Below, piece after piece: positions 8,361 to 22,030 of a stretch of 64,000 bases of DNA (positions within the stretch are counted from its first letter, which is position 1; the number at the start of each line of letters is the position of its first letter). Below the pieces are notes generated by a model, which saw nothing but the letters and a program-made list of their open reading frames with translations, searched no databases and was not told where the DNA came from. Source of the DNA: Bacteroidia bacterium (GTDB lineage: Bacteria > Bacteroidota > Bacteroidia > Palsa-965). The position numbers and the translations under genes are program-made. Location of the stretch: NCBI GenBank assembly GCA_023151315.1, contig JAKLJE010000012.1:27584-91583 (forward strand), read 5' to 3'.

Positions 8361-11006
8361 ATGGCAAAGAATTTAGTGATCGTAGAGTCGCCTGCAAAGG
8401 CAAAAACAATTGAGAATTTTCTCGGTAAAGACTTTACCGTGAAATCGAGTTTTGGTCATGTGCGGGACCTCGTTAAAAAAGGACTCGCTGTAGATACAGA
8501 AAAGGGATTCACTCCCAATTACGAAATCTCTCCGGATAAGGAGAAAGTGATTGCCGAACTGAAGAGATTGGCAAAGGACGCAGACATCGTCTGGCTCGCA
8601 ACGGATGAGGACCGCGAAGGAGAAGCCATTTCGTGGCACTTGTCGGAAGCGCTGAAACTTGACGACAAGAAAACACGTCGTATTGTGTTCCACGAGATCA
8701 CGAAACCGGCAATCATGAAAGCGATTGAATCGCCGAGAAAGATTGATCGTCACTTGGTAGATGCACAGCAGGCGAGACGTATTCTCGATCGTCTCGTTGG
8801 TTTTGAATTGTCTCCGATTTTATGGAAGAAAGTAAAACCATCTCTTTCTGCGGGTCGTGTACAGAGTGTAACCGTTCGTCTTATCGTTGAACGCGAGCGA
8901 GAAATTGCTGCATTCAAATCAACTTCTTCTTACAAAGTTTCAGCGGTTTTCATCAGCAACGGACAGAAGTTCAAAGCGGAATTGCGCTCTAATTTCAAAA
9001 CGATTGAAGAAGCACGCAAATTCCTGCATGTGTGTTCCAAGTCAACGTTCACAGTTTCTTCTCTCGAAACAAAACCATCACGTAAATCTCCTTCTGCACC
9101 GTTCACAACATCAACGTTACAGCAGGAAGCTTCTCGTAAACTTGGTTTTTCTCCGAAGAGAACAATGGTTGTGGCGCAGCGACTTTACGAAAGCGGTAAG
9201 ATCACATACATGCGAACTGACTCCGTGAACCTCTCTGAACTCGCTCTTGGTAAAGCCAAAGAAGTGGTAACTAAGAGTTACGGTGCAAAGTACGTTCACA
9301 CACGTCAGTATAAAACGAAAAACAAAGGCGCACAGGAAGCCCACGAAGCAATTCGTCCGACTTACCTCGAGCGCAATATGGTCGAAGGTGAACGTGACGA
9401 ACAACGCCTTTACGATCTGATCTGGAAGCGCACAATCGCTTCTCAAATGGCGGAAGCGGAACTCGAAAAAACAACTGCAGTTATTGCGGTGTCCGGTGCT
9501 TCAGAAACTTTCGTTGCGCAGGGAGAAGTAATCAAGTTCGACGGTTTCCTTGCTGTGTACATGGAGTCATCTGATGATGATAACGAAGATGACGACAGCG
9601 AGAACTCAGAAGCAATGCTTCCTCCTCTGAAAACAGGACAGGCATTGAATTCACACGCAATCACGGCAACACAACGTTTCACACATCATCCTCCGCGTTA
9701 TACAGAAGCTGCGTTGGTGAAAAAGCTTGAAGAGCTCGGAATCGGTCGACCTTCAACTTACGCTCCGACAATTTCTACAGTACAGGAACGCGGTTACGTT
9801 GTGAAGGAAGAACGTGAAGGAAAGCAAAGATCTTACGATGTTCTCACGCTCTCCAACGGAACAATCAATGAAGAAAAGCGCACGGAGAATACCGGCGCAG
9901 AAAAAAATAAATTGTTCCCGACGGATATCGGAACAGTTGTAACCGATTTTCTCAGTCAGTACTTCCCGAAAATCATGGACTACGGTTTCACGGCAAACGT
10001 GGAAGAAGAGTTTGATGAAATTGCCGAAGGAAAAATTGATTGGAGAAAAATGCTCGAGCAGTTCTACCGTCCGTTTCACAAAGACGTGGAGAAAACGGAA
10101 GAAACTTCTGAGCGAGCAAGCGGTGAACGTTTGCTCGGAAAAGATCCGCTTACGAAAAAGAACGTTTACGTTCGTATCGGTCGTTTCGGTCCATTGGTAC
10201 AGATCGGTGAAAGTGATGATCCGGAAAAGAAATTTGCAAGTCTGCGCAAAGACATGCGTCTCGAAACAGTGACTTTCGAAGATGCAATGGAATTGTTCAA
10301 ACTTCCTAAGACAGTTGGAAGTTATAAAGGCAAGGAACTCGTGATTGGAATCGGTCGTTTCGGTCCTTACGTGAAATGGGGCGATCAGTATGTTTCAATC
10401 CCACGCGGTGAGGATCCGATGAAAGTGGAAGAGGAGCGCGCTGTTGAGTTGGTGAAACAGAAAGAAGCTGCGGATGCTCCGATCGCGCAATACAAAGGAA
10501 CTCCGGTTACAAAAGGAAAAGGTCGTTTCGGACCGTTCATTAAGTTCGGTGATATATTCATCAACGTTCCGCGTGCATATGATTTCGATAATCTTTCGCA
10601 GAATGATATCGCAGAACTGATCGAAAAGAAACTCGAGAAGGAAGCGAATCGTTACATCAGGCAGTGGCCGGAAGAAAAAATTTCATTGGAGAACGGCCGT
10701 TGGGGTCCTTTCATTCGTTTCGGAAAAGCCATGTTGAAAATCACACGCAGTGATAAGCAGGAAAAACTTTCGCCGGAAGAAGTTGCTGAACTTTCACTCG
10801 AACAAGTGAAAGCCATGATCGAAGCTCAGGTTCCGGGTGCTTTTGACAAAAAAGGTTCTAAAGCTCCTGCGAAAAAGTCCAAAGCTCCGGCCAAAGCAAC
10901 GAAGGCTCCGGCGAAGAAAACAAAGGCGCCTGCAGTAAAAAAAGCTCCGGCAAAAAAAGCTCCGGCAAAGAAAGCAGCTAAGAAGGCGGCAAAAAAACGC
11001 AAGTAG
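8361..11006 (+). CDS. topA: DNA topoisomerase I (type IA) with a lysine/alanine-rich basic C-terminal tail.
   Basis: Toprim N-terminus MAKNLVIVESPAKAKTIENFLG. Several Zn-ribbon-like repeats of the form GRFGPY. Tail KAPAKKSKAPAKATKAPAKKTKAPAVKKAPAKKAPAKKAAKKAAKKRK. Confidence 0.93.
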   Translation: MAKNLVIVESPAKAKTIENFLGKDFTVKSSFGHVRDLVKKGLAVDTEKGFTPNYEISPDKEKVIAELKRLAKDADIVWLATDEDREGEAISWHLSEALKLDDKKTRRIVFHEITKPAIMKAIESPRKIDRHLVDAQQARRILDRLVGFELSPILWKKVKPSLSAGRVQSVTVRLIVEREREIAAFKSTSSYKVSAVFISNGQKFKAELRSNFKTIEEARKFLHVCSKSTFTVSSLETKPSRKSPSAPFTTSTLQQEASRKLGFSPKRTMVVAQRLYESGKITYMRTDSVNLSELALGKAKEVVTKSYGAKYVHTRQYKTKNKGAQEAHEAIRPTYLERNMVEGERDEQRLYDLIWKRTIASQMAEAELEKTTAVIAVSGASETFVAQGEVIKFDGFLAVYMESSDDDNEDDDSENSEAMLPPLKTGQALNSHAITATQRFTHHPPRYTEAALVKKLEELGIGRPSTYAPTISTVQERGYVVKEEREGKQRSYDVLTLSNGTINEEKRTENTGAEKNKLFPTDIGTVVTDFLSQYFPKIMDYGFTANVEEEFDEIAEGKIDWRKMLEQFYRPFHKDVEKTEETSERASGERLLGKDPLTKKNVYVRIGRFGPLVQIGESDDPEKKFASLRKDMRLETVTFEDAMELFKLPKTVGSYKGKELVIGIGRFGPYVKWGDQYVSIPRGEDPMKVEEERAVELVKQKEAADAPIAQYKGTPVTKGKGRFGPFIKFGDIFINVPRAYDFDNLSQNDIAELIEKKLEKEANRYIRQWPEEKISLENGRWGPFIRFGKAMLKITRSDKQEKLSPEEVAELSLEQVKAMIEAQVPGAFDKKGSKAPAKKSKAPAKATKAPAKKTKAPAVKKAPAKKAPAKKAAKKAAKKRK
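10850..10995 (+). repeat. Coding low-complexity AAAGCTCCGGC(A/G)AAG-type repeats encoding the KAPAKK tail of TopA.
   Basis: Repeated 'aaagctccggc' units are visible in the DNA. Confidence 0.6.
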
Positions 11007-11129: not shown

Positions 11130-12320
11130 ATGGCGAACACCAATCTCGATTATTCTGATTTCTTCAAACCGCTTGATCTGAATTCCATCGCAGGCGGTAA
11201 TCAATATCTGGCTACGCAACTCGGTAACCTTGCCGCAATTCATACTTCTGCATCCGGTTGGCCTGATCTTTCTGAATGTCACTTCGCAATTATCGGTGTG
11301 AACGAAGATCGTCCTGCTGTTAGCAATATCGGCGCTGCTGATGCTCCTGATGAAGTGAGAAAGTATCTGTACAGATTGTTCCAGGGAAATTGGAATGTGA
11401 AACTTGCCGACTTAGGAAATATTGCTGCCGGCGCAACACCGCAGGATACCGACTTTGCAATCAAAACCGTGATGGGTGGATTGCTTCGCAAGAATATCAT
11501 TCCGATCATCATCGGAGGAAGTCATCATCTTACATACGCGCAGTATCTCGCTTATGAAGCTATTGAGCAAACAGTAAACCTGGTTGCAATCGATCCTCGT
11601 TTCGATATTGGTGTGGGTTCAGATGAATACACCAGCCAGTCATGGGTAAGTAAAATCATTCTGCATCAACCGAATTTCCTTTTCAATTTTTCAAACGTTG
11701 GTTATCAGACATATTTCGTGGAGCAATCTGCGGTGGAACTGATGAGCAAATTGAATTTCGATATTCATCGTCTAGGAGTTTGTCGCGATAAGATTGCAGA
11801 CATAGAACCGGTAATCCGCAACGCAGATCTCGTGAGTTTTGATATTTCATGCGTGCGTCGCGCAGATGCGCCCGGTTGCGGATTTGCATCACCGAATGGT
11901 TTCTCCGGCGACGAAGCTTGTCAACTCGCTCGTTACGCAGGTATCAGTGATAAATGCACTTCATTCGGAATCTTTGAAGTGAATCCGTTGAAAGATCCGG
12001 AAGGTCATACATCACATCTTGCTGCGCAAATGATCTGGTGTTTCGTTGACGGATACTATAACAGAAAAAAAGATTTTCCTTTCGGAACGAAAGACGATTA
12101 CACGCGTTACCGCGTGTTCCTCAAAGATCAGAATCACGAAATTATTTTCTTCAAGAGCAATCGCAGCGACAGATGGTGGATGGAAGTTCCTTATCCGCCG
12201 AATCAGAAAATACGCTTCGAACGTCACGCACTTGTTCCATGCACATATTCAGATTATGAACTCGCGTGTGCAGAAGAAATGCCGGATCGTTGGTGGCAGA
12301 CGTTTCAGAAACTTTCTTAG
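11130..12320 (+). CDS. Arginase or formimidoylglutamase family protein (ureohydrolase fold).
   Basis: Motifs IIGVNEDR and IIIGGSHHLTY. 396 aa. Confidence 0.6.
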   Translation: MANTNLDYSDFFKPLDLNSIAGGNQYLATQLGNLAAIHTSASGWPDLSECHFAIIGVNEDRPAVSNIGAADAPDEVRKYLYRLFQGNWNVKLADLGNIAAGATPQDTDFAIKTVMGGLLRKNIIPIIIGGSHHLTYAQYLAYEAIEQTVNLVAIDPRFDIGVGSDEYTSQSWVSKIILHQPNFLFNFSNVGYQTYFVEQSAVELMSKLNFDIHRLGVCRDKIADIEPVIRNADLVSFDISCVRRADAPGCGFASPNGFSGDEACQLARYAGISDKCTSFGIFEVNPLKDPEGHTSHLAAQMIWCFVDGYYNRKKDFPFGTKDDYTRYRVFLKDQNHEIIFFKSNRSDRWWMEVPYPPNQKIRFERHALVPCTYSDYELACAEEMPDRWWQTFQKLS

Positions 12321-12437: not shown

Positions 12438-13472
12438 ATGAAACGCATGTTTACTTACATGGCATTGCTATGCCTTGCAGCGAACGGATTTTCTCAGCAG
12501 GATCCGCAGTTCACAAACTTCAATTTCAACAGAACATTTTTCAATCCTGCTCACACAGGTGTTAAACGTGCACTGTGTTTTACGGCGCTTGCGCGTAATC
12601 AGTGGAGCGGATTTGATGGCGCACCGAAAACTGCAACACTGACCGGCGAATACTGGATGGAAAATCTCTCCAGCGGTATAGGAGGATCTGTGATGATTGA
12701 TGAACTCGGTTTCGAAAAGAACATGAGCTACAGAATCAACTACGCATTTCACATGACTGAAGTTGCCGGAGGAAATCTCTCATTCGGTATTGATGCAGGT
12801 ATAACATCGAAAGTACTTGGACCTACAGGATCACAATCATGGATATCATCTTCATCATGGCAGAATGATCCTTCCATTCCTCCGCAAATCAAAAAATCAT
12901 CTCCGGATTTCGGTGCAGGAATCTGGTATCAACATACGAAATTCTGGGCGGGCGCATCCGCTTCTCACATTGGTACGCCGTCTATGAATCAGGGGAATGT
13001 TATTGTCAACACCAGTCCGCCCACTGTGCATTCCAGAATTTTTCAGGTAGCGCGACATTATTGGTTGACGGGAGGAGTCAATCTTCAGAAGCGAAACTGG
13101 TTGTTTCAGCCTTCGTTTCTGGTGAAATCAGATGCAGTTATTACATCATTCGATTTAAATTGTATCGCCACCTACAACAATGTTTTCTGGTTCGGAGCTA
13201 CATACCGTTATCAGGATGCGCTTTGTCCTCAACTCGGTTTTACGTGGCAAACAGGAGGAGTGAAAGGTAAACCAGGAACTGAAGAAACCGCGCCTGCTGA
13301 TCCGCGAAACAGAAAAAAGCCTGTTGCCACATGGAAAATCGGATTTGCGTATGATTACACAACTTCCAAACTGAATGACTACAACAACGGCACATTCGAA
13401 GTTTTCGTGAATTATTGCATTCCGATTACGCCATGGATTCAACGCCAAGGCTGTTCCAGACTGTTTGAATGA
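12438..13472 (+). CDS. PorP/SprF-family T9SS outer-membrane protein, copy 1.
   Basis: Signal peptide followed by QQDPQFTNFNFN and NPAHTG motifs. Lies directly upstream of gldK in a porP-porK-like arrangement. Confidence 0.8.
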   Translation: MKRMFTYMALLCLAANGFSQQDPQFTNFNFNRTFFNPAHTGVKRALCFTALARNQWSGFDGAPKTATLTGEYWMENLSSGIGGSVMIDELGFEKNMSYRINYAFHMTEVAGGNLSFGIDAGITSKVLGPTGSQSWISSSSWQNDPSIPPQIKKSSPDFGAGIWYQHTKFWAGASASHIGTPSMNQGNVIVNTSPPTVHSRIFQVARHYWLTGGVNLQKRNWLFQPSFLVKSDAVITSFDLNCIATYNNVFWFGATYRYQDALCPQLGFTWQTGGVKGKPGTEETAPADPRNRKKPVATWKIGFAYDYTTSKLNDYNNGTFEVFVNYCIPITPWIQRQGCSRLFE

Positions 13473-13781
13473 TCGATTTTTTATGGCGTTTTCTGCCTGA
13501 ATTGATCGATTTTCTTATGTTCCACGCTAAATTTTAAGTACTGATTATCAGTGGTATAGCTTTTATTCACAGGGTGTGTATCTTTTCCTGTTTCCTTGGT
13601 TATATATCTCAGAAACAGGTTAAAAAGCCCCAATCTGAACGAAATTCGGCTAAAGCCAGGTGTCGAGGTTTTGAACAGATTGGGGTTAAAAAAGATTTGG
13701 CATTAAAAAATGTTTACATATCTTAGCGACCTAGTGTACCGACCGTAAAGAGGAAGACGGGCGTGTAAACACCTTTTAACT

Positions 13782-14759
13782 ATGAAGAAAAGCTTTACAA
13801 TTATTGCTTTTGTATTGGGCAGCACGGCGGTTTTTGCTCAGCAGGATCCGCAATTCTCACAATACATGCACAACAAAATGTTCATGAACCCAGCTTACGC
13901 CGGCATGCGTCAGGCTCTGTGCGGAACATTAATCGCTCGCCAGCAATGGTCAGGATTTGAAGGTGCTCCACAAAGTGGTGTTCTTTCAGTTGACATGTTC
14001 ACCCCGCAACTTCATGGTGGTGTAGGTCTCAACGTAATGTATGATAAGCTCGGTTTCGAACAAACAATGGCTTATCGTCTTGCGTATTCATTCCATTTGC
14101 CACTCGCAGGCGGTACTCTCGGTATCGGTGTTGAGGGCGGTGCTGCATCAAAAACTCTCGGACCAACAGGTTCTCAGTCTTGGATCGCTACTACCAACTG
14201 GCAGAATGACCCTTCTGTTCCGCCTCAACTGAAGAAAACTACTTTCGACGTAGGTTTCGGTCTTTGGTACCAGCGTCAGAACATGTGGTTCGGTATTTCT
14301 TCAACTCACCTCGCTGCAAATAAATTCGACGACGGAACAACGAGCGTCAACCTGATCAACCACAATCTTGTTTACCAGATGGCACGCCATTACTGGGTAA
14401 CCGGTGGTGTTACTTTGATGCAGGGAAATACTTGGGAGGTTCGTCCTTCTTTCCTTGTTAAGTCTGACGCAACGGTAACTTCGTTCGATATCAACTGTAT
14501 CGCGATGTTTAATCAGCGTTTCTGGTTCGGTGCTTCTTATCGTTATCAGGATGCGATTATTCCAATGTTGGGCTTCCAGATTCCTCACGCTGTAACTGGC
14601 GAGAATGGCGGTCTTAAAGTTGGTTTCGCATACGACTACACAACTTCGAACCTTGGTGATTACAACAACGGTTCATTCGAGTTGTTCCTGAACTACTGCG
14701 TTCCAATCAAGTTTGTACAGAAAACTGAGCGTCACGGAGACGTACGTTTGTTCGACTAA
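13782..14759 (+). CDS. PorP/SprF-family T9SS outer-membrane protein, copy 2.
   Basis: N-terminus MKKSFTIIAFVLGSTAVFAQQDPQFSQYMHNKMFMNPAYAG. It shares a conserved C-terminal half with copy 1 (GFAYDYTTS.L.DYNNGSFE). Confidence 0.85.
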   Translation: MKKSFTIIAFVLGSTAVFAQQDPQFSQYMHNKMFMNPAYAGMRQALCGTLIARQQWSGFEGAPQSGVLSVDMFTPQLHGGVGLNVMYDKLGFEQTMAYRLAYSFHLPLAGGTLGIGVEGGAASKTLGPTGSQSWIATTNWQNDPSVPPQLKKTTFDVGFGLWYQRQNMWFGISSTHLAANKFDDGTTSVNLINHNLVYQMARHYWVTGGVTLMQGNTWEVRPSFLVKSDATVTSFDINCIAMFNQRFWFGASYRYQDAIIPMLGFQIPHAVTGENGGLKVGFAYDYTTSNLGDYNNGSFELFLNYCVPIKFVQKTERHGDVRLFD

Positions 14760-14954
14760 TTCTTTAACCAACAATATCAATTGAAACTTTAAAAGTCCAG
14801 TTGACGTTAAATACAGTCCTGATTTGACGAACCGCCCGGAAACGCGGTAAATATCTTCAGGAGGGGACAATTTCGGGAAAGATTGTTCCGTTATTTGATA
14901 GAACCTGGCACAGAAAACAACTACTACAACCAAGGGAAACCAAAGGAGGCTAAA

Positions 14955-16388
14955 ATGAAAAGATTGTTGTTCGCAGGCGTTGTTGCCATGTTATTGTTCA
15001 CTTCCTGCTCACAGGAAAATGGACAATTGATTGGCGTTCAAAACCGACCGGCATGGTATCCGTTCGATCCGTACGGAATGCTGTACTGTCCAATGGGCAG
15101 CTACAACATGGGACCGTCAGATGAGGATATTCCTTATGCCCACACAACGAAAGCTAAAACAGTTTCGGTACAGGCGTTTTACATGGACCAAACGGAAATC
15201 TCAAACAATGAGTACCGTCAGTTCGTGTATGATGTGCGTGACTCTATCGCACGTCGACTCCTCTCCGAAGAATACGAGGAAGAATACCTGATTCCGGAAG
15301 AAGAATGGATCGGATACGAAGACAATGGTCCTTTGTACATCGATGTTGACTATCCTCAGGATCCTTATCGTCCGTTGAATCGTTTGGAGAAAATCCGTTG
15401 GGACGAAACAGATCCTGACTACAAAGCTGCGTTGAACGACCTTTATCTTCCTATCGAAGAGCGTTTCTACAGCCGTAAAGACGTTGATACCCGCAAACTG
15501 ATTTTCGAATACTATCGTATCGACCTTCGTCTTGCTGCGTCAAAGTCTAACCGTTACAAGCCAAAAACAACTCCAGGCCCTGAAGGTCGTCAGTTCCCTA
15601 CACGTGAACAGGGAACCTATGACGTAACTAAGAAAGAAGGACAGCGTAACGGAGTAAACCGAAGCATCTTCATCATTAAAGATGTGATCAACGTTTACCC
15701 TGATACTTTGGCTTGGATTCATGACTTTACGTATTCATTCAACGAGCCAATGACCAATATGTATTTCTGGCATCCGGCTTATGATGATTATCCGGTGGTA
15801 GGTGTAACCTGGAAGCAGGCTCGTGCATTTTGTGTATGGCGCACAATGTTGCTGAACAACTTCCTGCGTTCAAACGATGAAGCAACTGTTCAGGATTTCC
15901 GTCTCCCAACGGAGTCTGAGTGGGAATACGCTGCTCGTGCCGGTCTGCAATTGTCTCCGTTCCCTTGGGGCGGTCCGTATATCCGTAACGCACGCGGATG
16001 TTTCTTAGGAAACTTCAAGCCAATGCGCGGTTCATACATCGATGATGGCGGATTCCACACGGTTAAGATTTTCTCTTATAACCCTAACGACTGGGGCTTC
16101 TATTGCATGGCTGGTAACGCAGCTGAGTGGACGAACAACGCGTTCGATGAATCAGCTTATGACTTCATGCATGACCTCAACCCTGATTACCAGTACGAGA
16201 CTACAGTTGCAGATGAGCAGATCCCTGTTCTGTGCCGCAAAGTAATCCGTGGCGGTTCGTGGAAAGATGTAGGTTTCTACCTGCAGAACTCTTCACGTAC
16301 TTATGAGTATCAGGATACAGCTAAGTGTTATGTCGGATTCCGTTGCGTAATGACCTTCCTCGGTCGTTCGAAGGATGATGATCTATAG
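14955..16388 (+). CDS. gldK: Gliding motility/T9SS lipoprotein GldK (PorK ortholog, FGE-sulfatase fold).
   Basis: Lipobox MKRLLFAGVVAMLLFTSC. An FGE/SUMF1-like domain carrying GGSWKD. AGGAGG lies 5 nt before the ATG. Confidence 0.88.
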   Translation: MKRLLFAGVVAMLLFTSCSQENGQLIGVQNRPAWYPFDPYGMLYCPMGSYNMGPSDEDIPYAHTTKAKTVSVQAFYMDQTEISNNEYRQFVYDVRDSIARRLLSEEYEEEYLIPEEEWIGYEDNGPLYIDVDYPQDPYRPLNRLEKIRWDETDPDYKAALNDLYLPIEERFYSRKDVDTRKLIFEYYRIDLRLAASKSNRYKPKTTPGPEGRQFPTREQGTYDVTKKEGQRNGVNRSIFIIKDVINVYPDTLAWIHDFTYSFNEPMTNMYFWHPAYDDYPVVGVTWKQARAFCVWRTMLLNNFLRSNDEATVQDFRLPTESEWEYAARAGLQLSPFPWGGPYIRNARGCFLGNFKPMRGSYIDDGGFHTVKIFSYNPNDWGFYCMAGNAAEWTNNAFDESAYDFMHDLNPDYQYETTVADEQIPVLCRKVIRGGSWKDVGFYLQNSSRTYEYQDTAKCYVGFRCVMTFLGRSKDDDL

Positions 16389-16451
16389 TAGTAATCCCAA
16401 AACCAAACATAATTTAATTCCTGTTTCTTAACCAACAAACAAGCACAAACA

Positions 16452-17324
16452 ATGAGCGGTAAAAGTTTATTTGAAACCAAGAAGTGGAAGATGTTTATGG
16501 CGAAGCTTTACGGCTTCGGAGCGGCGGTTGTAATCGTCGGTGCACTCTTCAAAATTCAGCACTGGCCAGGGGCTAGTCTTATGCTTATCGTAGGTCTGGG
16601 TACTGAGGCCGTAATCTTTATCTTCTCGGCTTTCGAACCGATTCACGAAGATCTGGATTGGACATTGGTTTACCCTGAACTTGCAGGAATGAGTGACGAA
16701 GAAGGAAAGCGTGGTCGTGAACTTGGCGGTGGCGGTGCAGTAGGTGATCCGCTTACTAATCAGCTCGACAAAATGCTTGAAGAAGCTAAGATCGGACCGG
16801 AACTTCTTGAAAGTTTGGGTCAGGGAATGCGTAACCTCTCCGACAGCGTTTCTAAAATGGGCGAAATTGCTGACGCGAGCGTAGCATCTAAAGAATTCTC
16901 TGATAACCTCAACAAGGCAACTTCTAAAGTTGACAACCTTGCTCAGGCATATGATCGTGCTAACGAAAGCGTTAGTTCATCTGTTGATCAGTTGGCAAGC
17001 GCATACACTCGTGCGTCACGTACGCTTGAGTCGTTCACTGTTGCTAATGATGAGGCTTCTAATTACAGCGAACAGCTTGGCAAGGTTTCTAAAAACCTCG
17101 CTGCACTCAATGCTGCTTACGAGCTTCAGCTTCAGGGTTCAAACGAACACCTCAAGGCTACAAACACGCTTTACGAAGGAATCCAGCAGATCCTTGGAAA
17201 CCTCAACGAGTCTATGGACGACACCCGTAGATATCGCTCTGAGATTTCTAATCTCGCGTCTAACCTCGAACAACTCAACACGGTGTACGGCAACATGCTG
17301 ACCGCTATGAACGTTCGTCGCTAA
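16452..17324 (+). CDS. gldL: Gliding motility/T9SS protein GldL (PorL).
   Basis: Motif YGFGAAVVIVGALFKIQHWPGASLMLIVGLGTEAVIFIFSAFEP. Two TM helices plus a cytoplasmic coiled-coil region. Confidence 0.9.
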   Translation: MSGKSLFETKKWKMFMAKLYGFGAAVVIVGALFKIQHWPGASLMLIVGLGTEAVIFIFSAFEPIHEDLDWTLVYPELAGMSDEEGKRGRELGGGGAVGDPLTNQLDKMLEEAKIGPELLESLGQGMRNLSDSVSKMGEIADASVASKEFSDNLNKATSKVDNLAQAYDRANESVSSSVDQLASAYTRASRTLESFTVANDEASNYSEQLGKVSKNLAALNAAYELQLQGSNEHLKATNTLYEGIQQILGNLNESMDDTRRYRSEISNLASNLEQLNTVYGNMLTAMNVRR

Positions 17325-17370
17325 TAATTCTGGTATTGCCTAACAAAAATTAAAAGGAGGATACTCGAAA

Positions 17371-19005
17371 ATGGCAGGTGGAAAACAGTCTCCGCGTCAG
17401 AAGATGATTGGTATGATGTACCTCGTACTTACCGCTCTTCTTGCGCTGAACGTATCAAAAGAAATCATCAACTCGTTCATGGTAATTGAAACGGGTCTGA
17501 TCAGCACTAACAACGGTATCGACAACAAAAACGGCATTCTTTACAGCCAGTTCGAGTTGGCGTTGCTGAACGATGAGAAGAAAGCAAAACCTTTCTACGA
17601 CAAAGCGATGGAAATCCGTAAAAAGTCGGATGAACTCGTGAAGTTTATTCAGGAACTTAAGTCTGAAATCAAAACTGAAACTCAGTTTGGTGTCAACTAC
17701 TCTCCTGAACAAAAGAAGATCGGTGATACTTTGAGCTCACGTCTCATAGACAAACCGGATGATTACGATACTCCGACTCACTACATGATTGGTGAAGACC
17801 CGGCGAACGTAACCGGAAAGGCTGCTGAATTGAAGAAGAAACTGAACGAACATCACAAATTCCTGATGTCTCAGTTGGCTCCTGATCAGCAGAAAGAACT
17901 TGAGAACAACCTCAAGACTCTTGAAACCAAAGAACAGTGGAACCAGTCTGAAGAGAAGACTGTAAGCTGGGAGTGGTACAACTTCTACCATATGCCTGTT
18001 ACGGCTATGCTTGCAAACCTTACCCGTATGCAGGTTGACGTAAAGAATGCAGAAGGTGACGTTGTAAACGAGCTTCTGGGTTCAGTTTCCAAGAACGACT
18101 TTAAGTTCGATACGCTTGCTGCGAAAGTAGTTGCTCCTACGAGCTACGTTCTTTCGGGTGATAAGTATGTAGCGAACCTTTTCGTTGCGGCATTCAGCAC
18201 TACGCAGGATCCTTCAATCTGGCTTTGCGATTACGATTCAGTAACCAAACAGCCAAAAGGACCGATCGACTCAACTTCAGTTAAAGTTGCTCGTGGTATC
18301 GGAACTTACGAAGTTGCTGCTAACGCAGTTGGTCTTCAGACTTGGAAAGGTTTGATCCGCGTTAAGAAGCCGGACAATTCATGGGAAGCATATCCATTCA
18401 AATCGGAGTACATCGTTGCTACACCATCTGCAGCTGTGTTCCTCGAGAAGATGAACGTGTTCTACATCGGTGTTGACAATCCTATCACAATTTCTGCAGC
18501 AGGTGTTGCTCCTGGAGATCTTCAGCCTTCAATCACTGGCGGAACTATGCGTCCTGCCGGTAAGCCGGGATCTTACATTGTATCTGTTTCTCAGGGAACC
18601 AAAGCTACAATCAACGTAGGTGCAAAACTGAACGGAGTACAGAAATCAATGGGATCATTCGATTTCCGTATCAAGCGTGTACCGGATCCGGTAGCTTACG
18701 TAGGAAACATCAAGGGTGACGGACAGATGACGAAAGCCGAACTCAATGCAGCAAGCGGTGTGTTTGCTCGTATGGAAGGCTTCGACTTCGATCTCTCATT
18801 CTCAGTTGTATCTTTCGTAATGTCAATGAACGTTAACGGTGTATTCGTGGAGAAGAAAGGAAACGGCCCTGCGATTACAGCGGAAATGAAGTCACTGCTC
18901 GCAGGAGCTAAGCCTGGAAACAAAGTCTTCTTTGAGCAGATTACAGTTAAAGGTCCTGATGGATCATTACGTAAAATACCTGGCGTAAACATCAAGGTGA
19001 AGTAA
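17371..19005 (+). CDS. gldM: Gliding motility/T9SS protein GldM (PorM).
   Basis: N-terminus MAGGKQSPRQKMIGMMYLVLTALLALNVSKE. AGGAGG lies 10 nt upstream. Confidence 0.92.
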   Translation: MAGGKQSPRQKMIGMMYLVLTALLALNVSKEIINSFMVIETGLISTNNGIDNKNGILYSQFELALLNDEKKAKPFYDKAMEIRKKSDELVKFIQELKSEIKTETQFGVNYSPEQKKIGDTLSSRLIDKPDDYDTPTHYMIGEDPANVTGKAAELKKKLNEHHKFLMSQLAPDQQKELENNLKTLETKEQWNQSEEKTVSWEWYNFYHMPVTAMLANLTRMQVDVKNAEGDVVNELLGSVSKNDFKFDTLAAKVVAPTSYVLSGDKYVANLFVAAFSTTQDPSIWLCDYDSVTKQPKGPIDSTSVKVARGIGTYEVAANAVGLQTWKGLIRVKKPDNSWEAYPFKSEYIVATPSAAVFLEKMNVFYIGVDNPITISAAGVAPGDLQPSITGGTMRPAGKPGSYIVSVSQGTKATINVGAKLNGVQKSMGSFDFRIKRVPDPVAYVGNIKGDGQMTKAELNAASGVFARMEGFDFDLSFSVVSFVMSMNVNGVFVEKKGNGPAITAEMKSLLAGAKPGNKVFFEQITVKGPDGSLRKIPGVNIKVK

Positions 19006-19032
19006 TCACCAACTATAAGGGAGGAAATAAAA

Positions 19033-19893
19033 ATGAAAAGGTTCAGATTCTTACTGGTAGCGGTCATTACCATTCTGTCCATCAGTACTACTGATGCGCA
19101 GGTACTCGATCCGAATTTTCCTGACCAGGTTTACCTGAAGGAAAATACGAGAACGCGTCGCCCGATCCCGTACACATATCTGCGTGAAGCAGATGTGATG
19201 TGGTCAAAGCGAGTGTGGAGAACAATTGACCTCCGCGAGAAATTCAACCATCCGTTGTATTATCCGGAAACCAGAATTCAGGACCGTCGCAGTCTGTTCG
19301 ACGTTTTGAAAGATGCTTTGATGGCTGGTTCTATCACTGCATTTGACAATCCTGCAATGGATGACGAGTTCAAGGTAAAAATGTCCAAAGCGGCTATTGA
19401 AGGTCTCTTCGTACAGTGGGATTCCACCAATCAGGTGGAAGATCCGAATAACCCCGGAACTTTCATTCTTGCTCCGATCAAAACTGAGCTTTTGTCAAAC
19501 AACGTGAAAGCGTACTGGATGAAAGAAGACTGGTTCTTTGATAAGCAGCGTTCTGTAATGGATGTGCGCATTCTCGGATTGTGCCCGATGAAAGAAAAAC
19601 AGGATCCGTCAACCGGTGAGGTTGTGGGTTACCTGCCGCTCTTCTGGGTGTATTTCCCGCAGTGCCGTCCGGTTTTCGCAACAGCTGAAGTTTACAACCT
19701 GAAAACAGATGCAGAGCGTCGTTCACTCGACGACATTTTCTGGAAGCGCATGTTCCAGAGCTATGTTCACAAAGAAACCAACGTTTACGACCGTAACATT
19801 CAGTCGTACTACACAGGTCTCGACGCTCTTCTGGAGTCAGATCGTATCAAGAACGACATTTTTGTTTACGAACACGATTTGTGGCACTTCTAA
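19033..19893 (+). CDS. gldN: Gliding motility/T9SS protein GldN (PorN).
   Basis: Motifs EADVMWSKRVWRTIDLREKFNHPLYYPE and KEDWFFDKQRSVMDVRILGLCP. GGGAGG lies 8 nt upstream. Confidence 0.9.
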   Translation: MKRFRFLLVAVITILSISTTDAQVLDPNFPDQVYLKENTRTRRPIPYTYLREADVMWSKRVWRTIDLREKFNHPLYYPETRIQDRRSLFDVLKDALMAGSITAFDNPAMDDEFKVKMSKAAIEGLFVQWDSTNQVEDPNNPGTFILAPIKTELLSNNVKAYWMKEDWFFDKQRSVMDVRILGLCPMKEKQDPSTGEVVGYLPLFWVYFPQCRPVFATAEVYNLKTDAERRSLDDIFWKRMFQSYVHKETNVYDRNIQSYYTGLDALLESDRIKNDIFVYEHDLWHF

Positions 19894-19912
19894 GACACGA
19901 ATTCAATAAAAA

Positions 19913-19943
19913 GGTCCCTCGGTAACCCCGGGGGATTTTTTTT
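19913..19943 (+). terminator. Intrinsic terminator after gldN.
   Basis: CCCTCGG and CCGGGGG form a 7-bp stem (one G-U pair) with loop TAACC, followed by T8. Confidence 0.55.
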
Positions 19944-20051
19944 GCCCTTGTGCGTCATAATGCGTTCCTGAAGATTTTTTTTAATGTCGAGTGACTTTCG
20001 TCCGGCAGCTGCTTTATGCTTCTGAATCCACAAACAAGAAAGGAGCATAAA

Positions 20052-20921
20052 ATGAAAAAGCAGATCATCATTATTCCACGTCCCGGCAGTTTTGTATTTG
20101 TTGTACTAATCGCTGTTCTGATGGCTTTACCGTCAATTCTGTCAGCGCAGATTCCATCAACATTTTACGTCAAGGAAAATACCCGTAACCGCAAGCCGGT
20201 AAGTTACAATCACGAGCGTGAAACGGATATCATGTGGTCGAAACGTGTTTGGCGCACTCTCGATCTGCGAGAAAAGTTTAATCATCCTTTGTACTATCCG
20301 GAGAATCCGATCAACGACAGAAAGAGTTTGTTTGACGTGATCAAGCAGGGAATTATGGACGGAGAGATTTGGGCTTATGATAACCCTGTGTTCGACGATG
20401 AGTTCAAAGTGAAAATGAGTAAGATTCAATTTGATTCTATGGTAGCCTGGGTTGATTCTGTTGACGTTGAGGATCCGTTTAATCCGGGTACTTACATCAG
20501 AGTGGCCGTGCCGGGATTTCTGGAGTCGCGTTCGGTGAAGCAATACTGGGTGAAAGAAGATTGGTTTTTCGATCGTCAACGTTCTGTGATGGATGTACGC
20601 ATTCTGGGATTATGTCCGCTGCAGGAAAAGACAGATGCGAATGGCGAGATCATTGGATACAAACCTTTGTTCTGGGTGTATTTTCCTCAGTGTCGCGAAG
20701 TGTTTGCACGCAATGAAGTATTCAACACGCACAATGATGCGCAACGACTTTCGGTTGATGACGTTTTCTTCAAACGCATGTTCTCCAGTTACGTGCATAA
20801 GGAAAGTAACGTGTACGACAGAAGCATTAACAGTTATGCAAGCGGATTGGATGCATTGCTTGAAGCGGACCGCGTGAAGGATGATATATCGAAGACTGAG
20901 CACGATGTGTGGCATTTTTAG
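20052..20921 (+). CDS. GldN paralog 2 (GldO-like).
   Basis: Motifs ETDIMWSKRVWRTLDLREKFNHPLYYPE and KEDWFFDRQRSVMDVRILGLCP. AGGAG lies 6 nt upstream. Confidence 0.88.
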   Translation: MKKQIIIIPRPGSFVFVVLIAVLMALPSILSAQIPSTFYVKENTRNRKPVSYNHERETDIMWSKRVWRTLDLREKFNHPLYYPENPINDRKSLFDVIKQGIMDGEIWAYDNPVFDDEFKVKMSKIQFDSMVAWVDSVDVEDPFNPGTYIRVAVPGFLESRSVKQYWVKEDWFFDRQRSVMDVRILGLCPLQEKTDANGEIIGYKPLFWVYFPQCREVFARNEVFNTHNDAQRLSVDDVFFKRMFSSYVHKESNVYDRSINSYASGLDALLEADRVKDDISKTEHDVWHF

Positions 20922-20941
20922 TCACGGGTGCTTTTTGCGGG

Positions 20942-20981
20942 GCGGCATTCTCTCTTCGGAGCGGATGCCGCTGTTTTTTTT
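20942..20981 (+). terminator. Intrinsic terminator after the second gldN paralog.
   Basis: Outer stem GCGGCAT/ATGCCGC with inner CTC-TTCG-GAG, followed by TGTTTTTTTT. Confidence 0.65.
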
Positions 20982-21091
20982 AGCATTCCTTCACACTAAG
21001 CGGCATGGTGTTTCGTTATTAATAGAACAAAGCATCAACTCATGCAAACCGATACACGAGCGTATTGTATCCATTTAGAAAGGAGGAACCT

Positions 21092-22030
21092 ATGTATTCT
21101 TCATTGCATGAGAAACGCGAACAGCCGGGAACCGCAAAGGTTGTGTTTCGCGAAGTGATTACATTCATCCGCATTTTTGTTTTTTTCGGTTTACTGTTTC
21201 TGTTTACGCAGGCGTGTGCACAGACTCAAACTGCAACACGTTATCCTGAATCGCATGTGATGATCTCTCCGGAATCGCACGGTGCTACTCTTCAGCGAAA
21301 AGCAGTTCCATATCCGTATGTACGTGAAGCTGATGTAATGTGGGCGAAACGTATCTGGAGAACGATTGATTTGCGGGAGAAAATGAATCACCCGTATTAT
21401 TATCCCGAAACACCGCATAACGGATTGATGAGTTTGTTTGACATTGTTAAGGAAGCTGTGTTGACAGGACAGGCAACTGCATTTGATAATCCGGCGATGG
21501 ATGATGAATTCAAAGTGAAGATGAACGCGGAAGCTGTAGCCGCATTGTTGCAGAGTAAAGAACTTGTAGAAGTGGAAGATCCGTACAACCCCGGAACTTA
21601 CATTCTCGATACAGTTGTTAACGAAGTAATGAGTTCTGATGTAATGGCTTGGTGGGTAAAAGAGGATTGGTTCTTCGATAAGCAACGTTCGGTGATGGAC
21701 GTTCGTATAGTCGGAATTTGTCCGCTGATGCAGAAGAAGGATCCTAACTCAGGAGATCCGATAGGAATGAAACCTTTGTTCTGGTGCTACTTTCCTCAGT
21801 TGCGACCGATATTGGTTAAGCATGAGATTTATCTCGGGCAAAACAACGGTCAACGATTAACCTACGATGATATTTTTCAGAAACGTTTTTTCGGAAGTTA
21901 TATTCACAAGGAATCCAATGTTTATGATCGTCCTATCCCGGAATACCTCAAAGGATTGGATGCGTTGCTGGAATCCGAAAGTGTGAAAGAAGGAATAATG
22001 AACTTCGAAAGTGACCTGTGGCACTATTAG
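21092..22030 (+). CDS. GldN paralog 3.
   Basis: Motifs EADVMWAKRIWRTIDLREKMNHPYYYPE and KEDWFFDKQRSVMDVRIVGICP. AGGAGG lies 5 nt before ATG 21092. Confidence 0.88.
   Translation: MYSSLHEKREQPGTAKVVFREVITFIRIFVFFGLLFLFTQACAQTQTATRYPESHVMISPESHGATLQRKAVPYPYVREADVMWAKRIWRTIDLREKMNHPYYYPETPHNGLMSLFDIVKEAVLTGQATAFDNPAMDDEFKVKMNAEAVAALLQSKELVEVEDPYNPGTYILDTVVNEVMSSDVMAWWVKEDWFFDKQRSVMDVRIVGICPLMQKKDPNSGDPIGMKPLFWCYFPQLRPILVKHEIYLGQNNGQRLTYDDIFQKRFFGSYIHKESNVYDRPIPEYLKGLDALLESESVKEGIMNFESDLWHY

What the first reader, a model, noticed from the sequence alone, without database searches (positions are those of the whole stretch)
12438..22030. T9SS/gliding core with duplicated PorP/SprF and triplicated GldN, each gldN paralog with its own terminator
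The gene order is porP-like, porP-like, gldK, gldL, gldM, gldN, gldN', gldN''. The three GldN paralogs (286, 290 and 313 aa) share the EADVMWSKR(V/I)WRT(I/L)DLREK and KEDWFFD(K/R)QRSVMDVRI(L/V)G(L/I)CP blocks. They diverge at the N-termini and in the central region. They are separated by two strong intrinsic terminators (19913-43, 20942-81), and each has its own SD, so they are probably differentially expressed rather than one polycistron. To my knowledge Flavobacterium has two (gldN and gldO). Three copies plus two PorP-like genes suggests subfunctionalised periplasmic rings or cargo-specific shuttles.
Basis: partly seen in the sequence, partly recalled or inferred. Interest (0 to 1): 0.6.

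Follow-up and report, generated by a model that had tools for sequence, protein, structure and literature searches.

The report
T9SS operon with three GldN paralogs
This is the core type IX secretion / gliding gene cluster of an uncultured freshwater Bacteroidia bacterium; its periplasmic ring protein GldN exists as three old, intact and separately terminated copies, an unusual but not revolutionary variation on a well-known machine.

Summary
Window 12438-22030 (+ strand) encodes porP, porP', gldK, gldL, gldM and three full-length gldN genes. All match their families far above the curated cut-offs. Strong hairpin plus U-tract terminators follow gldN1 and gldN2.

Comparison with 79 related loci, all but one from MAGs, adds four points:
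- The three GldN form orthologous groups kept across a whole lineage, which carries 1-4 tandem copies, and each is under strong purifying selection (dN/dS 0.01-0.05).
- gldN1, next to gldM, evolves slowest. A terminator follows it in nearly all relatives, and none follows gldK, gldL or gldM. The ancestral operon is therefore gldKLMN1.
- gldN2 and gldN3 have conserved upstream blocks. In three genomes they lie away from gldKLMN1, so they are autonomous units.
- The paralogs differ most in the N-terminal arm, which in PorN docks into PorK.

That gene-specific strong SD in an SD-poor class is itself the oddest feature seen.

Verdict: a new variant of a known system, of moderate interest.

The parts
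12438..13472 (+). porP-a: PorP/SprF-family outer-membrane beta-barrel, 344 aa. It is the fast-evolving upstream copy and is present in only part of the lineage.
   Evidence: TIGR03519 scores 197 bits and PF11751 207 bits. It is 49% identical to porP-b. It is 87% identical to the L001 ortholog with dN/dS 0.047, but only 51% identical to L003. It is absent in L010-12, L017, L018 and L020.
13782..14759 (+). porP-b: PorP/SprF-family beta-barrel, 325 aa. This conserved copy sits next to gldK and is the counterpart of P. gingivalis porP.
   Evidence: TIGR03519 scores 236 bits. It is present upstream of gldK in every complete locus. It has a conserved C-tail, NYC-x18-VR(I/L)FD.
14955..16388 (+). gldK: ring/track lipoprotein with an FGE-sulfatase fold, 477 aa. 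It carries the Arg-Gly-Cys-Phe motif.
   Evidence: TIGR03525 scores 551 bits. The N-terminus is MKRLLFAGVVAMLLFTSC, and the motif ARGCFLGNF is visible in the translation. PMC12635249 describes this motif as the Cys that bonds SprF and PorG.
16452..17324 (+). gldL: motor stator protein, 290 aa. It is the only core gene of the operon without an SD-like motif.
   Evidence: TIGR03513 scores 222 bits and PF22827 also matches. The predicted SD:ASD energy is +0.3 kcal/mol.
17371..19005 (+). gldM: motor / periplasmic arm protein, 544 aa, with four GldM domains.
   Evidence: TIGR03517 scores 348 bits, and PF12081, PF21601, PF21602 and PF12080 all match.
19033..19893 (+). gldN1: the operon-internal GldN, 286 aa, starting 27 nt after gldM. 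It is the slowest-evolving copy.
   Evidence: TIGR03523 scores 235 bits. Mean ortholog identity is 0.81, against 0.64 for N2 and 0.69 for N3. dN/dS is 0.039. The orthogroup has 89% bootstrap support.
19908..19943 (+). Intrinsic terminator after gldN1: stem TCCCTCGG / CCGGGGGA, loop TAACC, then T8.
   Evidence: Folding gives -23.4 kcal/mol, z = -2.9, and 0 of 200 shuffles fold as well. An equivalent hairpin plus T-run lies 31-49 nt after the stop in at least 19 of 23 close relatives and after the first gldN of all sister-clade loci. The same test finds 0 of 39 after gldK, 0 of 40 after gldL and 0 of 44 after gldM.
19989..20020 (+). Conserved two-box block in the gldN1-gldN2 spacer (GAGTGACTTT, a variable spacer, then TATGCT). 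It is a candidate promoter or operator for gldN2.
   Evidence: GTGACTTT and TAT.C are invariant in 9 genomes at fixed spacing, while the sequence between them varies. It is not a canonical TAnnTTTG box.
20052..20921 (+). gldN2: second GldN paralog, 289 aa.
   Evidence: TIGR03523 scores 213 bits. It is 62% identical to N1. dN/dS is 0.036 against L001. Orthologs group with 91% bootstrap support among near relatives and 54% across the whole clade.
20941..20981 (+). Intrinsic terminator after gldN2: stem GGCGGCATTC / GGATGCCGCT with an inner CTC-TTCG-GAG, then T8.
   Evidence: Folding gives -25.2 kcal/mol, z = -3.2, and 0 of 200 shuffles fold as well. Hairpin plus T-run also follows most N2-type copies in relatives.
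20992..21058 (+). Conserved blocks in the gldN2-gldN3 spacer: CACACTAAG, CGTT, TCATGCAAA and TACACG. They are candidate regulatory sites for gldN3 and differ from those before gldN2.
   Evidence: The blocks appear in the alignment of 8 spacers.
21092..22030 (+). gldN3: third and most divergent GldN paralog, 312 aa. Its N-terminal arm is longer and different, and it lacks the second Cys (FPQLRP instead of FPQCRP).
   Evidence: TIGR03523 scores 209 bits. It is 53% identical to N1. The orthogroup has 98% bootstrap support. dN/dS is 0.012 against L048. Clade-specific residues are listed.
14942..14949 (+). SD-like motif AAAGGAGG before gldK. Equivalent motifs lie at 17352-17360 (gldM), 19017-19024 (gldN1), 20038-20045 (gldN2) and 21077-21087 (gldN3).
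   Evidence: Predicted pairing with a canonical 16S tail is -11.7 to -16.2 kcal/mol for these five genes. It is no stronger than -6.8 kcal/mol for 19 other genes of the window. The motifs are conserved in relatives.

Best explanation
**What it is.** This is the chromosomal core type IX secretion / gliding cluster of an uncultured Bacteroidia lineage. Its nearest relatives are freshwater and soil MAGs.

**Operon structure.** The ancestral unit is (porP)-gldK-gldL-gldM-gldN1, closed by an intrinsic terminator.
- GldN1 is the canonical partner of GldK in the outer-membrane-associated GldK/GldN ring or track that the GldLM motor drives.
- gldN2 and gldN3 are old tandem duplicates lying outside that terminator.
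- Each of the two has its own upstream control region, and gldN2 also has its own terminator. The cell can therefore set their amounts separately from gldKLMN1.

**The paralogs.**
- All three keep the complete GldN core, so they most likely enter the same kind of GldK-bound assembly.
- They differ most in the N-terminal arm, which in P. gingivalis PorN inserts into a groove of PorK, and in a central surface segment.
- I infer that they are non-redundant isoforms that change the composition or partner contacts of the ring or track. Possible forms are a mixed ring, GldK-side versus GldJ-side rows, or condition-specific assemblies.

**The second porP.** porP-a is a younger, fast-evolving extra carrier or anchor barrel.

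**Shown versus inferred.**
- Shown: gene identities, conservation, selection, terminators and autonomy of location.
- Inferred: separate transcription, incorporation into the ring, and distinct roles.
For: - **Family matches.** All eight genes match far above the cut-offs, and PDB PorN/GldN chains are hit at 1e-23 to 1e-25.
- **Synteny.** The order topA, arginase-like gene, porP, gldKLM, gldN(x1-4), DUF2461(-), AI-2E(-) holds in 79 loci.
- **Orthogroups.** Bootstrap support is 89% for N1, 98% for N3 and 54% for N2 (91% among near relatives).
- **Selection.** dN/dS is 0.012-0.05 for every copy in close pairs.
- **Rates.** N1 evolves at the rate of GldK (93% against 93% identity to L003). N2 and N3 are 72% and 62% identical to L003, and mean ortholog identities are 0.81, 0.64 and 0.69.
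- **Terminators.** They fold far better than shuffles. They recur after the first gldN in almost all relatives and never after gldK, gldL or gldM.
- **Physical autonomy.** The gldN2..gldN3 group follows an acyltransferase gene, away from gldKLMN1, in L042, L043 and L051. In L051 an opposite-strand restriction-modification module is inserted just before gldN3.
- **Spacers.** Conserved, mutually different spacer blocks precede gldN2 and gldN3.
- **Precedents.**
  - F. psychrophilum gldN has its own ECF-type promoter (PMC9723704).
  - F. johnsoniae GldO interacts with GldK and GldM (PMC8986121).
  - The PorN N-terminal helix docks in a PorK groove (PMC12421860, PMC12635249).
- **N-terminal arm.** It is conserved within N1, partly conserved in N2 and replaced in N3.
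Against: - There are no RNA or protein data, so read-through of the terminators cannot be excluded.
- No canonical Bacteroidota sigma-A box (TAnnTTTG) occurs in either spacer, nor upstream of any gene of the cluster. The promoters are inferred from conservation only.
- The deep nodes of the GldN tree are poorly resolved: N2 monophyly has 54% support and N1+N2 48%.
- Whether N2 and N3 bind GldK at all was not tested, because no multimer modelling was available.
- The genome's gldJ and sprA content is unknown, because only 64 kb is available.
Confidence: 0.6

Rival explanations
1. The copies are redundant dosage copies. gldN2 and gldN3 would be interchangeable back-ups of gldN1, like GldN and GldO of F. 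johnsoniae, kept only to raise the GldN supply.
For: [quoted passage not shown]
- All three proteins keep the same invariant core, with 99 of 286 columns identical and conserved in all three groups.
Against: - The copies are 53-62% identical.
- They form separate orthogroups kept through the divergence of a whole lineage.
- Each is under strong purifying selection.
- They have group-specific conserved residues and different N-terminal arms.
- Purely redundant copies are not expected to persist this long.
Confidence: 0.12
2. The cluster is one graded polycistron. The hairpins would be leaky terminators or RNA-stabilising structures, so gldK to gldN3 is read from one promoter. Partial termination would fix a stoichiometry of N1 > N2 > N3 for a heteromeric ring.
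For: - All genes are on the same strand and the spacers are only 158 and 170 nt.
- No canonical promoter box is found in the spacers.
- Partial termination is a recognised transcript class in Flavobacterium transcriptomes (the 3'-PT class in PMC9723704).
Against: - Both hairpins are strong and followed by T8.
- Each spacer has its own conserved two-box or multi-box block downstream of the terminator.
- gldN2 and gldN3 persist when detached from gldKLMN1 and when separated by opposite-strand genes.
Confidence: 0.18
3. N2 and N3 have changed function. They would no longer be ring subunits but periplasmic regulators, assembly chaperones or adaptors, for example capping or competing for GldK or GldM sites.
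For: - They evolve faster.
- In N3 the PorK-docking N-terminal arm is replaced and one Cys is lost.
- Unlinked single gldN-like genes occur in related genomes in non-T9SS neighbourhoods.
Against: - The match to the GldN profile is full-length and strong, at 209-213 bits.
- The blocks that make up the conserved core of the fold are retained.
- There is no added domain.
Confidence: 0.1

Closest known systems
Flavobacterium johnsoniae gldK-gldL-gldM-gldN-gldO
   Same: The gene order gldKLMN is the same, and an extra tandem gldN paralog follows on the same strand. GldO also interacts with GldK and GldM (PMC8986121, PMC9127263).
   Different: - The window has three copies and relatives have up to four, against one extra copy in F. 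johnsoniae.
- From my own memory of Rhodes 2010, which I could not read here, GldN and GldO are a young, very similar pair. The copies here are 53-62% identical and form lineage-wide orthogroups.
- A conserved terminator separates the copies here.
- Two porP genes sit directly upstream of gldK here.
Porphyromonas gingivalis porP-porK-porL-porM-porN
   Same: porP lies directly upstream of the K-L-M-N genes. The PorK/PorN ring is 1:1, and the PorN N-terminal helix docks in a PorK groove. The Arg-Gly-Cys-Phe motif of PorK is present in this GldK (PMC12635249, PMC12421860).
   Different: - P. gingivalis has a single porN and a single porP in the cluster.
- It does not glide.
- PorN has a long C-terminal extension that is absent here.
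Flavobacterium psychrophilum gldN with its own ECF-type (SM6) promoter
   Same: It is a precedent for transcription of gldN under separate control from the rest of the operon, together with porU and the PorG homolog, and induced at low nutrient levels (PMC9723704).
   Different: - That case is one gldN gene with an internal promoter, not separate paralogs.
- The conserved boxes seen here were not shown to be ECF-type.
rpsU (bS21) strong-SD autoregulation in Flavobacteriales
   Same: A strong SD (pairing energy below about -12 kcal/mol) sits on selected genes in a class whose bulk mRNAs lack SD sequences. gldN3 reaches -16.2 kcal/mol (PMC9976891, PMC13000453).
   Different: - That mechanism is known only for rpsU, which is stated to be the one strong-SD gene in F. 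johnsoniae.
- Here the motif marks gldK, gldM and the gldN genes.
- No functional evidence exists for these genes.

Membership tests
T9SS ring subunit PorN/GldN (TIGR03523 / PF19841) | Full-length match to the family profile above the curated cut-off | tested here: met
   N1, N2 and N3 score 235, 213 and 209 bits against a cut-off of 85.9, covering profile positions 4-280 or 11-280 of 280. They score 234-240 bits against PF19841. PDB PorN/GldN chains 9myj, 9mzu, 9ots and 7pvh are hit at 4e-25 to 6e-23.
T9SS ring subunit PorN/GldN (TIGR03523 / PF19841) | Periplasmic protein with an N-terminal signal peptide | tested here: met
   Hydrophobic N-terminal segments end in A-Q (TDAQ, LSAQ, ACAQ), as read directly from the translations. 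No predictor was run.
T9SS ring subunit PorN/GldN (TIGR03523 / PF19841) | Encoded immediately downstream of gldM/porM in the gldKLMN cluster | tested here: met
   gldN1 starts 27 nt after gldM, and N2 and N3 follow in tandem.
T9SS ring subunit PorN/GldN (TIGR03523 / PF19841) | Forms a 1:1 ring or track with GldK/PorK and contacts GldM D4 | not testable with these tools
   No multimer prediction or biochemistry was available. There is only indirect support, because N1 evolves at the rate of GldK.
T9SS lipoprotein PorK/GldK (TIGR03525) | Equivalog-level profile match, FGE-sulfatase fold, lipoprotein signal, and the reactive Cys in an Arg-Gly-Cys-Phe motif | tested here: met
   It scores 551 bits against a cut-off of 350, and 137 bits against PF03781. 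The N-terminus is ...LLFTSC, and the motif ARGCFLGNF is in the translation. The motif is defined in PMC12635249.
T9SS motor PorL/GldL and PorM/GldM (TIGR03513, TIGR03517) | Equivalog-level matches, with the GldL N-terminal domain and all four GldM domains | tested here: met
   GldL scores 222 bits against 68.3 and GldM 348 bits against 180. PF22827, PF12081, PF21601, PF21602 and PF12080 all match.
PorP/SprF family outer-membrane protein (TIGR03519 / PF11751) | Full-length profile match, and a position next to gldK (PorP-like) or next to a type-B CTD cargo (SprF-like) | tested here: met
   The two genes score 197 and 236 bits against a cut-off of 90.55. Both lie directly upstream of gldK, and no cargo gene is adjacent.
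PorP/SprF family outer-membrane protein (TIGR03519 / PF11751) | SprF-type Cys-x-Cys motif in the periplasmic C-tail, used for the disulfide link to GldK | tested here: not met
   There is no CxC motif. All gldK-adjacent PorP proteins have a single conserved Cys (NYC/GYC) at the start of the tail. Only window PorP-a and its L001 ortholog add a second Cys (QGCSRLFE). These proteins are therefore PorP-like and not SprF proper.
GldN/GldO-type partially redundant pair | Functional interchangeability of the tandem copies | not testable with these tools
   This needs genetics. The comparative data (old orthogroups, purifying selection, group-specific residues) argue against full redundancy.
Intrinsic (Rho-independent) terminator | A stable GC-rich hairpin directly followed by a U-tract, at the 3' end of a gene, folding better than shuffles | tested here: met
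   One search gives z = -2.9 and -3.2, with 0 of 200 shuffles folding as well. The position is conserved while the stem sequence changes. The control finds none after gldK, gldL or gldM. Termination activity itself was not tested.

The most novel reading that the evidence does not exclude
The three GldN would be non-interchangeable isoforms that build GldK-GldN assemblies of different composition. Examples are a secretion hub versus a gliding track, or a GldK-facing versus a GldJ-facing row. Each would be under its own transcriptional control. In addition, the output of GldK, GldM and every GldN would be set at translation by unusually strong SD sequences. In SD-blind Bacteroidia, only ribosomes with an exposed anti-SD (for example those lacking bS21) could read such sequences. 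T9SS ring and arm genes would then be a second natural client of 'specialised ribosomes', after rpsU.
Probability: 0.15. Interest if true: 0.7.

Novelty: new variant of a known kind. Interest (0 to 1): 0.4.

Why it matters
The 2025 structures and the disulfide-track model make GldK/GldN (plus GldJ) the moving element that powers both secretion and gliding. That work studied a single GldN or PorN subunit and did not address paralogous isoforms. This lineage has kept three to four distinct GldN isoforms for a long time, each separately terminated. It is therefore a natural system for asking three questions:
- Can ring or track composition be varied?
- Which GldN surface (N-terminal arm, central loop) decides the partner?
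- Is the T9SS tuned by isoform switching?

The gene-specific strong SD motifs on gldK, gldM and gldN raise a further question. If they are functional, they would extend SD-dependent translational control in Bacteroidia beyond rpsU. If none of this holds, the locus is simply a T9SS operon with extra gene copies.

Tried and rejected
- **Canonical promoter search.** I searched for the Bacteroidota sigma-A -7 box TAnnTTTG upstream of every gene of the cluster and found none. The sigma-70 scan gave fewer hits than shuffles. Promoters therefore cannot be called by consensus.
- **Rfam.** A search at gathering thresholds over the whole window gave no hit. There is no rRNA gene for taxonomy or for the anti-SD sequence, and no known riboswitch or leader.
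- **Terminator consensus fold.** RNAalifold on a MAFFT alignment of the post-gldN1 hairpins gave only a 4-pair consensus, because the stems are misaligned. I used per-sequence folds instead.
- **Tree with fast-evolving copies.** NJ bootstraps that included the fast-evolving extra copies (L020_c2, L042/43/51_c2) collapsed N1 and N2 support to about 10-40%. Without them support is 89%, 54% and 98%. The order of the duplications relative to the sister clade stays unresolved.
- **Partner genes near unlinked gldN copies.** I looked for a gldJ/gldK-like partner beside the unlinked gldN copies of related genomes. The conserved neighbours showed no similarity to gldK at BLAST level. By my own reading of their sequences, without a family search, they look like a PepT-like peptidase, a secreted metalloprotease and a TPR-containing signalling protein.
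- **Other T9SS genes in the window.** None were found. The flanks are housekeeping genes such as groEL, miaB, topA, his genes, dsbD and tilS.
- **GTGACTTT regulon.** The motif occurs three times in the window, which is the chance level, so there is no evidence of a local regulon.
- **Rhodes et al. 2010.** The paper (PMC2820869) is not held. The GldN/GldO identity is therefore quoted from memory only.
- **Structure prediction.** I did not run it. Only monomers can be modelled, and family membership was already unambiguous.

Full report

Yes. The + strand of 12438-22030 carries eight ORFs at the stated places.

| Gene | Coordinates | Length |
|---|---|---|
| porP-a | 12438-13472 | 344 aa |
| porP-b | 13782-14759 | 325 aa |
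| gldK | 14955-16388 | 477 aa |
| gldL | 16452-17324 | 290 aa |
| gldM | 17371-19005 | 544 aa |
| gldN1 | 19033-19893 | 286 aa |
| gldN2 | 20052-20921 | 289 aa |
| gldN3 | 21092-22030 | 312 aa |

- Gene calls made independently on public assemblies that carry an identical GldN3 give exactly these lengths. The protein was seen on 13 contigs from several sequencing runs. The tandem array is therefore not an assembly artefact.
- All eight proteins match their NCBIfam and Pfam families far above the curated cut-offs, and the three GldN cover the whole profile. PDB PorN/GldN chains are hit at about 1e-25.
- N1/N2 are 62% identical, N1/N3 53%, and the two PorP 49%.
- The two hairpins with T8 tracts at 19908-19943 and 20941-20981 fold at -23.4 and -25.2 kcal/mol. 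Their z-scores are about -3, and 0 of 200 shuffles fold as well. Nothing comparable follows gldN3, which abuts a convergent gene.

**2. Context**

- The flanks are housekeeping genes.
  - Upstream: groEL, a sigma-54 activator, miaB, topA and an arginase-family gene.
  - Downstream: a TIGR02453/DUF2461 gene, an AI-2E transporter, an ABC-F gene and his genes.
- No other T9SS gene, cargo gene or RNA family is in the window.
- A scan of species-representative genomes found 79 related loci. All are MAGs, labelled Bacteroidia, Bacteroidota or 'Flavobacteriales bacterium' and mostly from lakes, rivers and soil, except one Niastella isolate at 37% identity. The closest is JBJOKQ01 (Sycamore Creek surface water), at 96-99% amino-acid identity.
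- The order topA, arginase-like gene, porP, gldK, gldL, gldM, gldN(xN), DUF2461(-), AI-2E(-) is conserved throughout.

**3. What the relatives show**

*(a) Copy number.* The number of tandem gldN genes varies from 1 to 4.
- Three copies occur in the window's own clade (L002-L005, L010-L012, L014-L017).
- Four occur in L006, L020 and the L018+L042 and L019+L043 genomes.
- Two occur in a sister clade at about 60% identity, and one in more distant genomes.

*(b) Orthology.* The copies of the window's clade fall into three orthologous groups that follow gene order.
- Bootstrap support is 89% for N1, 98% for N3, and 54% for N2 (91% for the N2 of near relatives).
- Extra copies are lineage-specific offshoots of N1 or N2.
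- Deep branching is unresolved, including whether N3 is orthologous to the sister clade's second copy.

*(c) Selection.* Every copy is under strong purifying selection.
- dN/dS is 0.039, 0.036 and 0.012 for N1, N2 and N3 against the closest genome.
- It is 0.01-0.05 in other close pairs.

*(d) Rates.* The rates differ between copies.
- N1 keeps pace with GldK, each 93% identical to L003. N2 and N3 have dropped to 72% and 62%.
- Over 45 genome pairs the mean ortholog identities are 0.81, 0.64 and 0.69.

*(e) Terminator after the first gldN.*
- A hairpin plus T-run lies 31-49 nt after the N1 stop in at least 19 of 23 close relatives, with different stem sequences. It also follows the first gldN of every sister-clade locus.
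- The same test finds 0 of 39 after gldK, 0 of 40 after gldL, 0 of 44 after gldM and 1 of 47 after porP.
- gldK-L-M-N1 is thus the conserved transcription unit, and the extra copies lie beyond its terminator.

*(f) Spacers.*
- The gldN1-gldN2 spacer holds a two-box block (GTGACTTT, then about 17 nt of unconstrained sequence, then TATGC). It is invariant in nine genomes.
- The gldN2-gldN3 spacer holds different conserved blocks.

*(g) Physical autonomy.*
- In three genomes the gldN2-type..gldN3 group sits behind an unrelated acyltransferase gene, on a different contig from gldKLMN1.
- In one of them an opposite-strand HNH plus cytosine-methylase module lies directly upstream of gldN3.
- These genes therefore function as autonomous units.

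**4. Where the paralogs differ**

- Of the 286 N1 positions, 99 are conserved and identical in all three groups.
- The mature N-terminal arm is strongly conserved in N1 (QVLDP.FPDQ....ENTRTR.PIPYT). It is partly kept in N2 (ETFY.KEN.R.RK) and replaced by a different, variable segment in N3.
- N3 also has group-specific substitutions (RIWRT, GL.SLFD, FPQLRP.LV, with loss of a Cys).
- The segment at about 118-155 is variable in N2 and N3.
- The main differences therefore fall on the part expected to grip the lipoprotein partner. This is an inference from homology and was not tested here.

**5. Most likely mechanism**

- GldN1 is the canonical 1:1 partner of GldK in the ring or track driven by GldLM.
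- GldN2 and GldN3 are old, non-redundant isoforms that are produced from their own units and enter, or modify, the same assembly.
- In the current model GldK, GldN and GldJ together form the moving track, and GldN touches both lipoproteins (PMC12635249). Isoforms specialised for different partners or for different assemblies are therefore a reasonable reading.
- I put about 0.6 on 'three functional, separately controlled, non-redundant GldN'.
- I put about 0.3 on the narrower idea of physically distinct rings or tracks.
- The rivals are pure redundancy as for GldN/GldO (0.12), one graded polycistron with leaky terminators (0.18), and loss of the ring role by N2 and N3 (0.10).

**6. The two porP genes**

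- porP-b, next to gldK, is the conserved one, at 85-97% identity to close orthologs. It has an almost invariant C-tail, NYC-x18-GHGDVR(I/L)FD.
- porP-a is present in only part of the clade and evolves fast, at 51-87% identity. It carries a 20-residue insertion and has a variable tail.
- Neither has the Cys-x-Cys motif of SprF, and no cargo gene is adjacent. Both are PorP-like rather than SprF-like.

**7. The Shine-Dalgarno point**

In this window a strong SD-like motif precedes only gldK, gldM, gldN1, gldN2 and gldN3.
- Their predicted pairing with a canonical 16S tail is -11.7 to -16.2 kcal/mol.
- For gldL, both porP genes and 16 other genes, the value is no stronger than -6.8 kcal/mol.
- Across relatives the contrast between T9SS genes and their neighbours holds.

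| Genes | Share with an SD-like motif or strong pairing |
|---|---|
| gldK, own clade | 17 of 17 |
| gldM, own clade | 17 of 18 (12 of 18 at or below -9 kcal/mol) |
| gldN copies, own clade / sister clade / others | 79% / 55% / 40% at or below -9 kcal/mol |
| topA, arginase-like gene, porP, gldL, DUF2461, AI-2E | essentially none (2 of 217) |

- Ribosomes of Bacteroidia studied so far ignore SD sequences. In F. johnsoniae the only strong-SD gene reported is rpsU (PMC7797042, PMC9976891, PMC13000453).
- The motif therefore does not show independent expression, because it also marks operon-internal genes. It is a conserved, gene-specific signal of unknown function.
- I found no paper linking SD sequences to gld or por genes.

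**8. Comparison with known systems, and novelty**

- The cluster is a bona fide member of the T9SS/gliding core (see the membership table).
- Tandem gldN duplication is known from F. johnsoniae gldN/gldO, which are partially redundant (PMC9127263). GldO was absent from the other Flavobacterium genomes compared in PMC5395568.
- Separate control of gldN has a precedent in F. psychrophilum (PMC9723704).
- Three things are new here:
  - the scale and age of the expansion, with three to four orthogroups across a lineage;
  - the consistent placement of the extra copies beyond the operon terminator;
  - the asymmetric evolution centred on the partner-binding arm.
- My full-text searches found no description of this.
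- I class it as a new variant of a known kind, with interest 0.4.

Noticed in passing
window 14942-14949, 17352-17360, 19017-19024, 20038-20045, 21077-21087; also L001-L068 upstream of gldN: Strong Shine-Dalgarno-like motifs (AAGGAGG type, predicted pairing -11.7 to -16.2 kcal/mol) precede only gldK, gldM and the three gldN genes among 24 genes tested in the window. The same gene-specific pattern holds across about 60 related genomes, whereas neighbouring housekeeping genes, gldL and porP essentially never have it (2 of 217). Bacteroidia ribosomes are reported to be SD-blind apart from rpsU autoregulation.
   Followed up: partly
window 14711-14759 (PorP-b C-tail), 13400-13472 (PorP-a C-tail), and the GldK motif ARGCF inside 14955-16388; all PorP ORFs of L001-L074: Every gldK-adjacent PorP has one conserved Cys (NYC/GYC/GFC) where the barrel ends and an approximately 20-residue periplasmic tail begins. 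GldK keeps the Arg-Gly-Cys-Phe motif whose Cys is disulfide-bonded to SprF and PorG tails in F. johnsoniae and P. gingivalis. PorP might be a third disulfide client of GldK. Window PorP-a and its L001 ortholog carry a second tail Cys (QGCSRLFE).
   Followed up: partly
window 12438-22030 compared with L001/L048: Synonymous divergence from the closest genome is very uneven along the locus. It is 0.29-0.57 for porP-b, gldK, gldL, gldM and gldN1, about 0.9 for topA and the arginase-like gene, and 1.4-1.9 for porP-a, gldN2 and gldN3 (NG86 estimates, which are noisy above 1). This could reflect codon bias in the core operon, or recombination and old alleles at the accessory copies.
   Followed up: no
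window 11130-12320 (+): An arginase / formimidoylglutamase-family gene sits between topA and porP/gldK in almost every related locus, from 98% down to about 40% GldN identity. It scores below the NCBIfam hutG cut-off (95 bits against 229). This is a conserved linkage of unknown meaning.
   Followed up: no
L050, L052, L055, L058-L060, L064, L068 (around position 10000 of each): Sister-clade genomes carry an additional, unlinked gldN-like gene in a conserved neighbourhood. No gldK-like gene lies nearby at BLAST level. By my reading of the sequences, without a family search, the neighbours look like a PepT-like peptidase, a large secreted metalloprotease and a TPR-containing signalling protein. 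This gene also has a GGAGG motif before its start.
   Followed up: partly
L051 8570-10731 (- strand): An HNH endonuclease plus C-5 cytosine methylase module is inserted between the fourth gldN copy and the gldN3 ortholog in one MAG.
   Followed up: no
window 14864-14889 (+): A 10-bp hairpin (GGGACAATTT...AGATTGTTCC) followed by GTTATTTGAT lies in the 195-nt porP-b-gldK spacer. It could be a weak terminator or a leader structure upstream of gldK. Its conservation was not examined.
   Followed up: no
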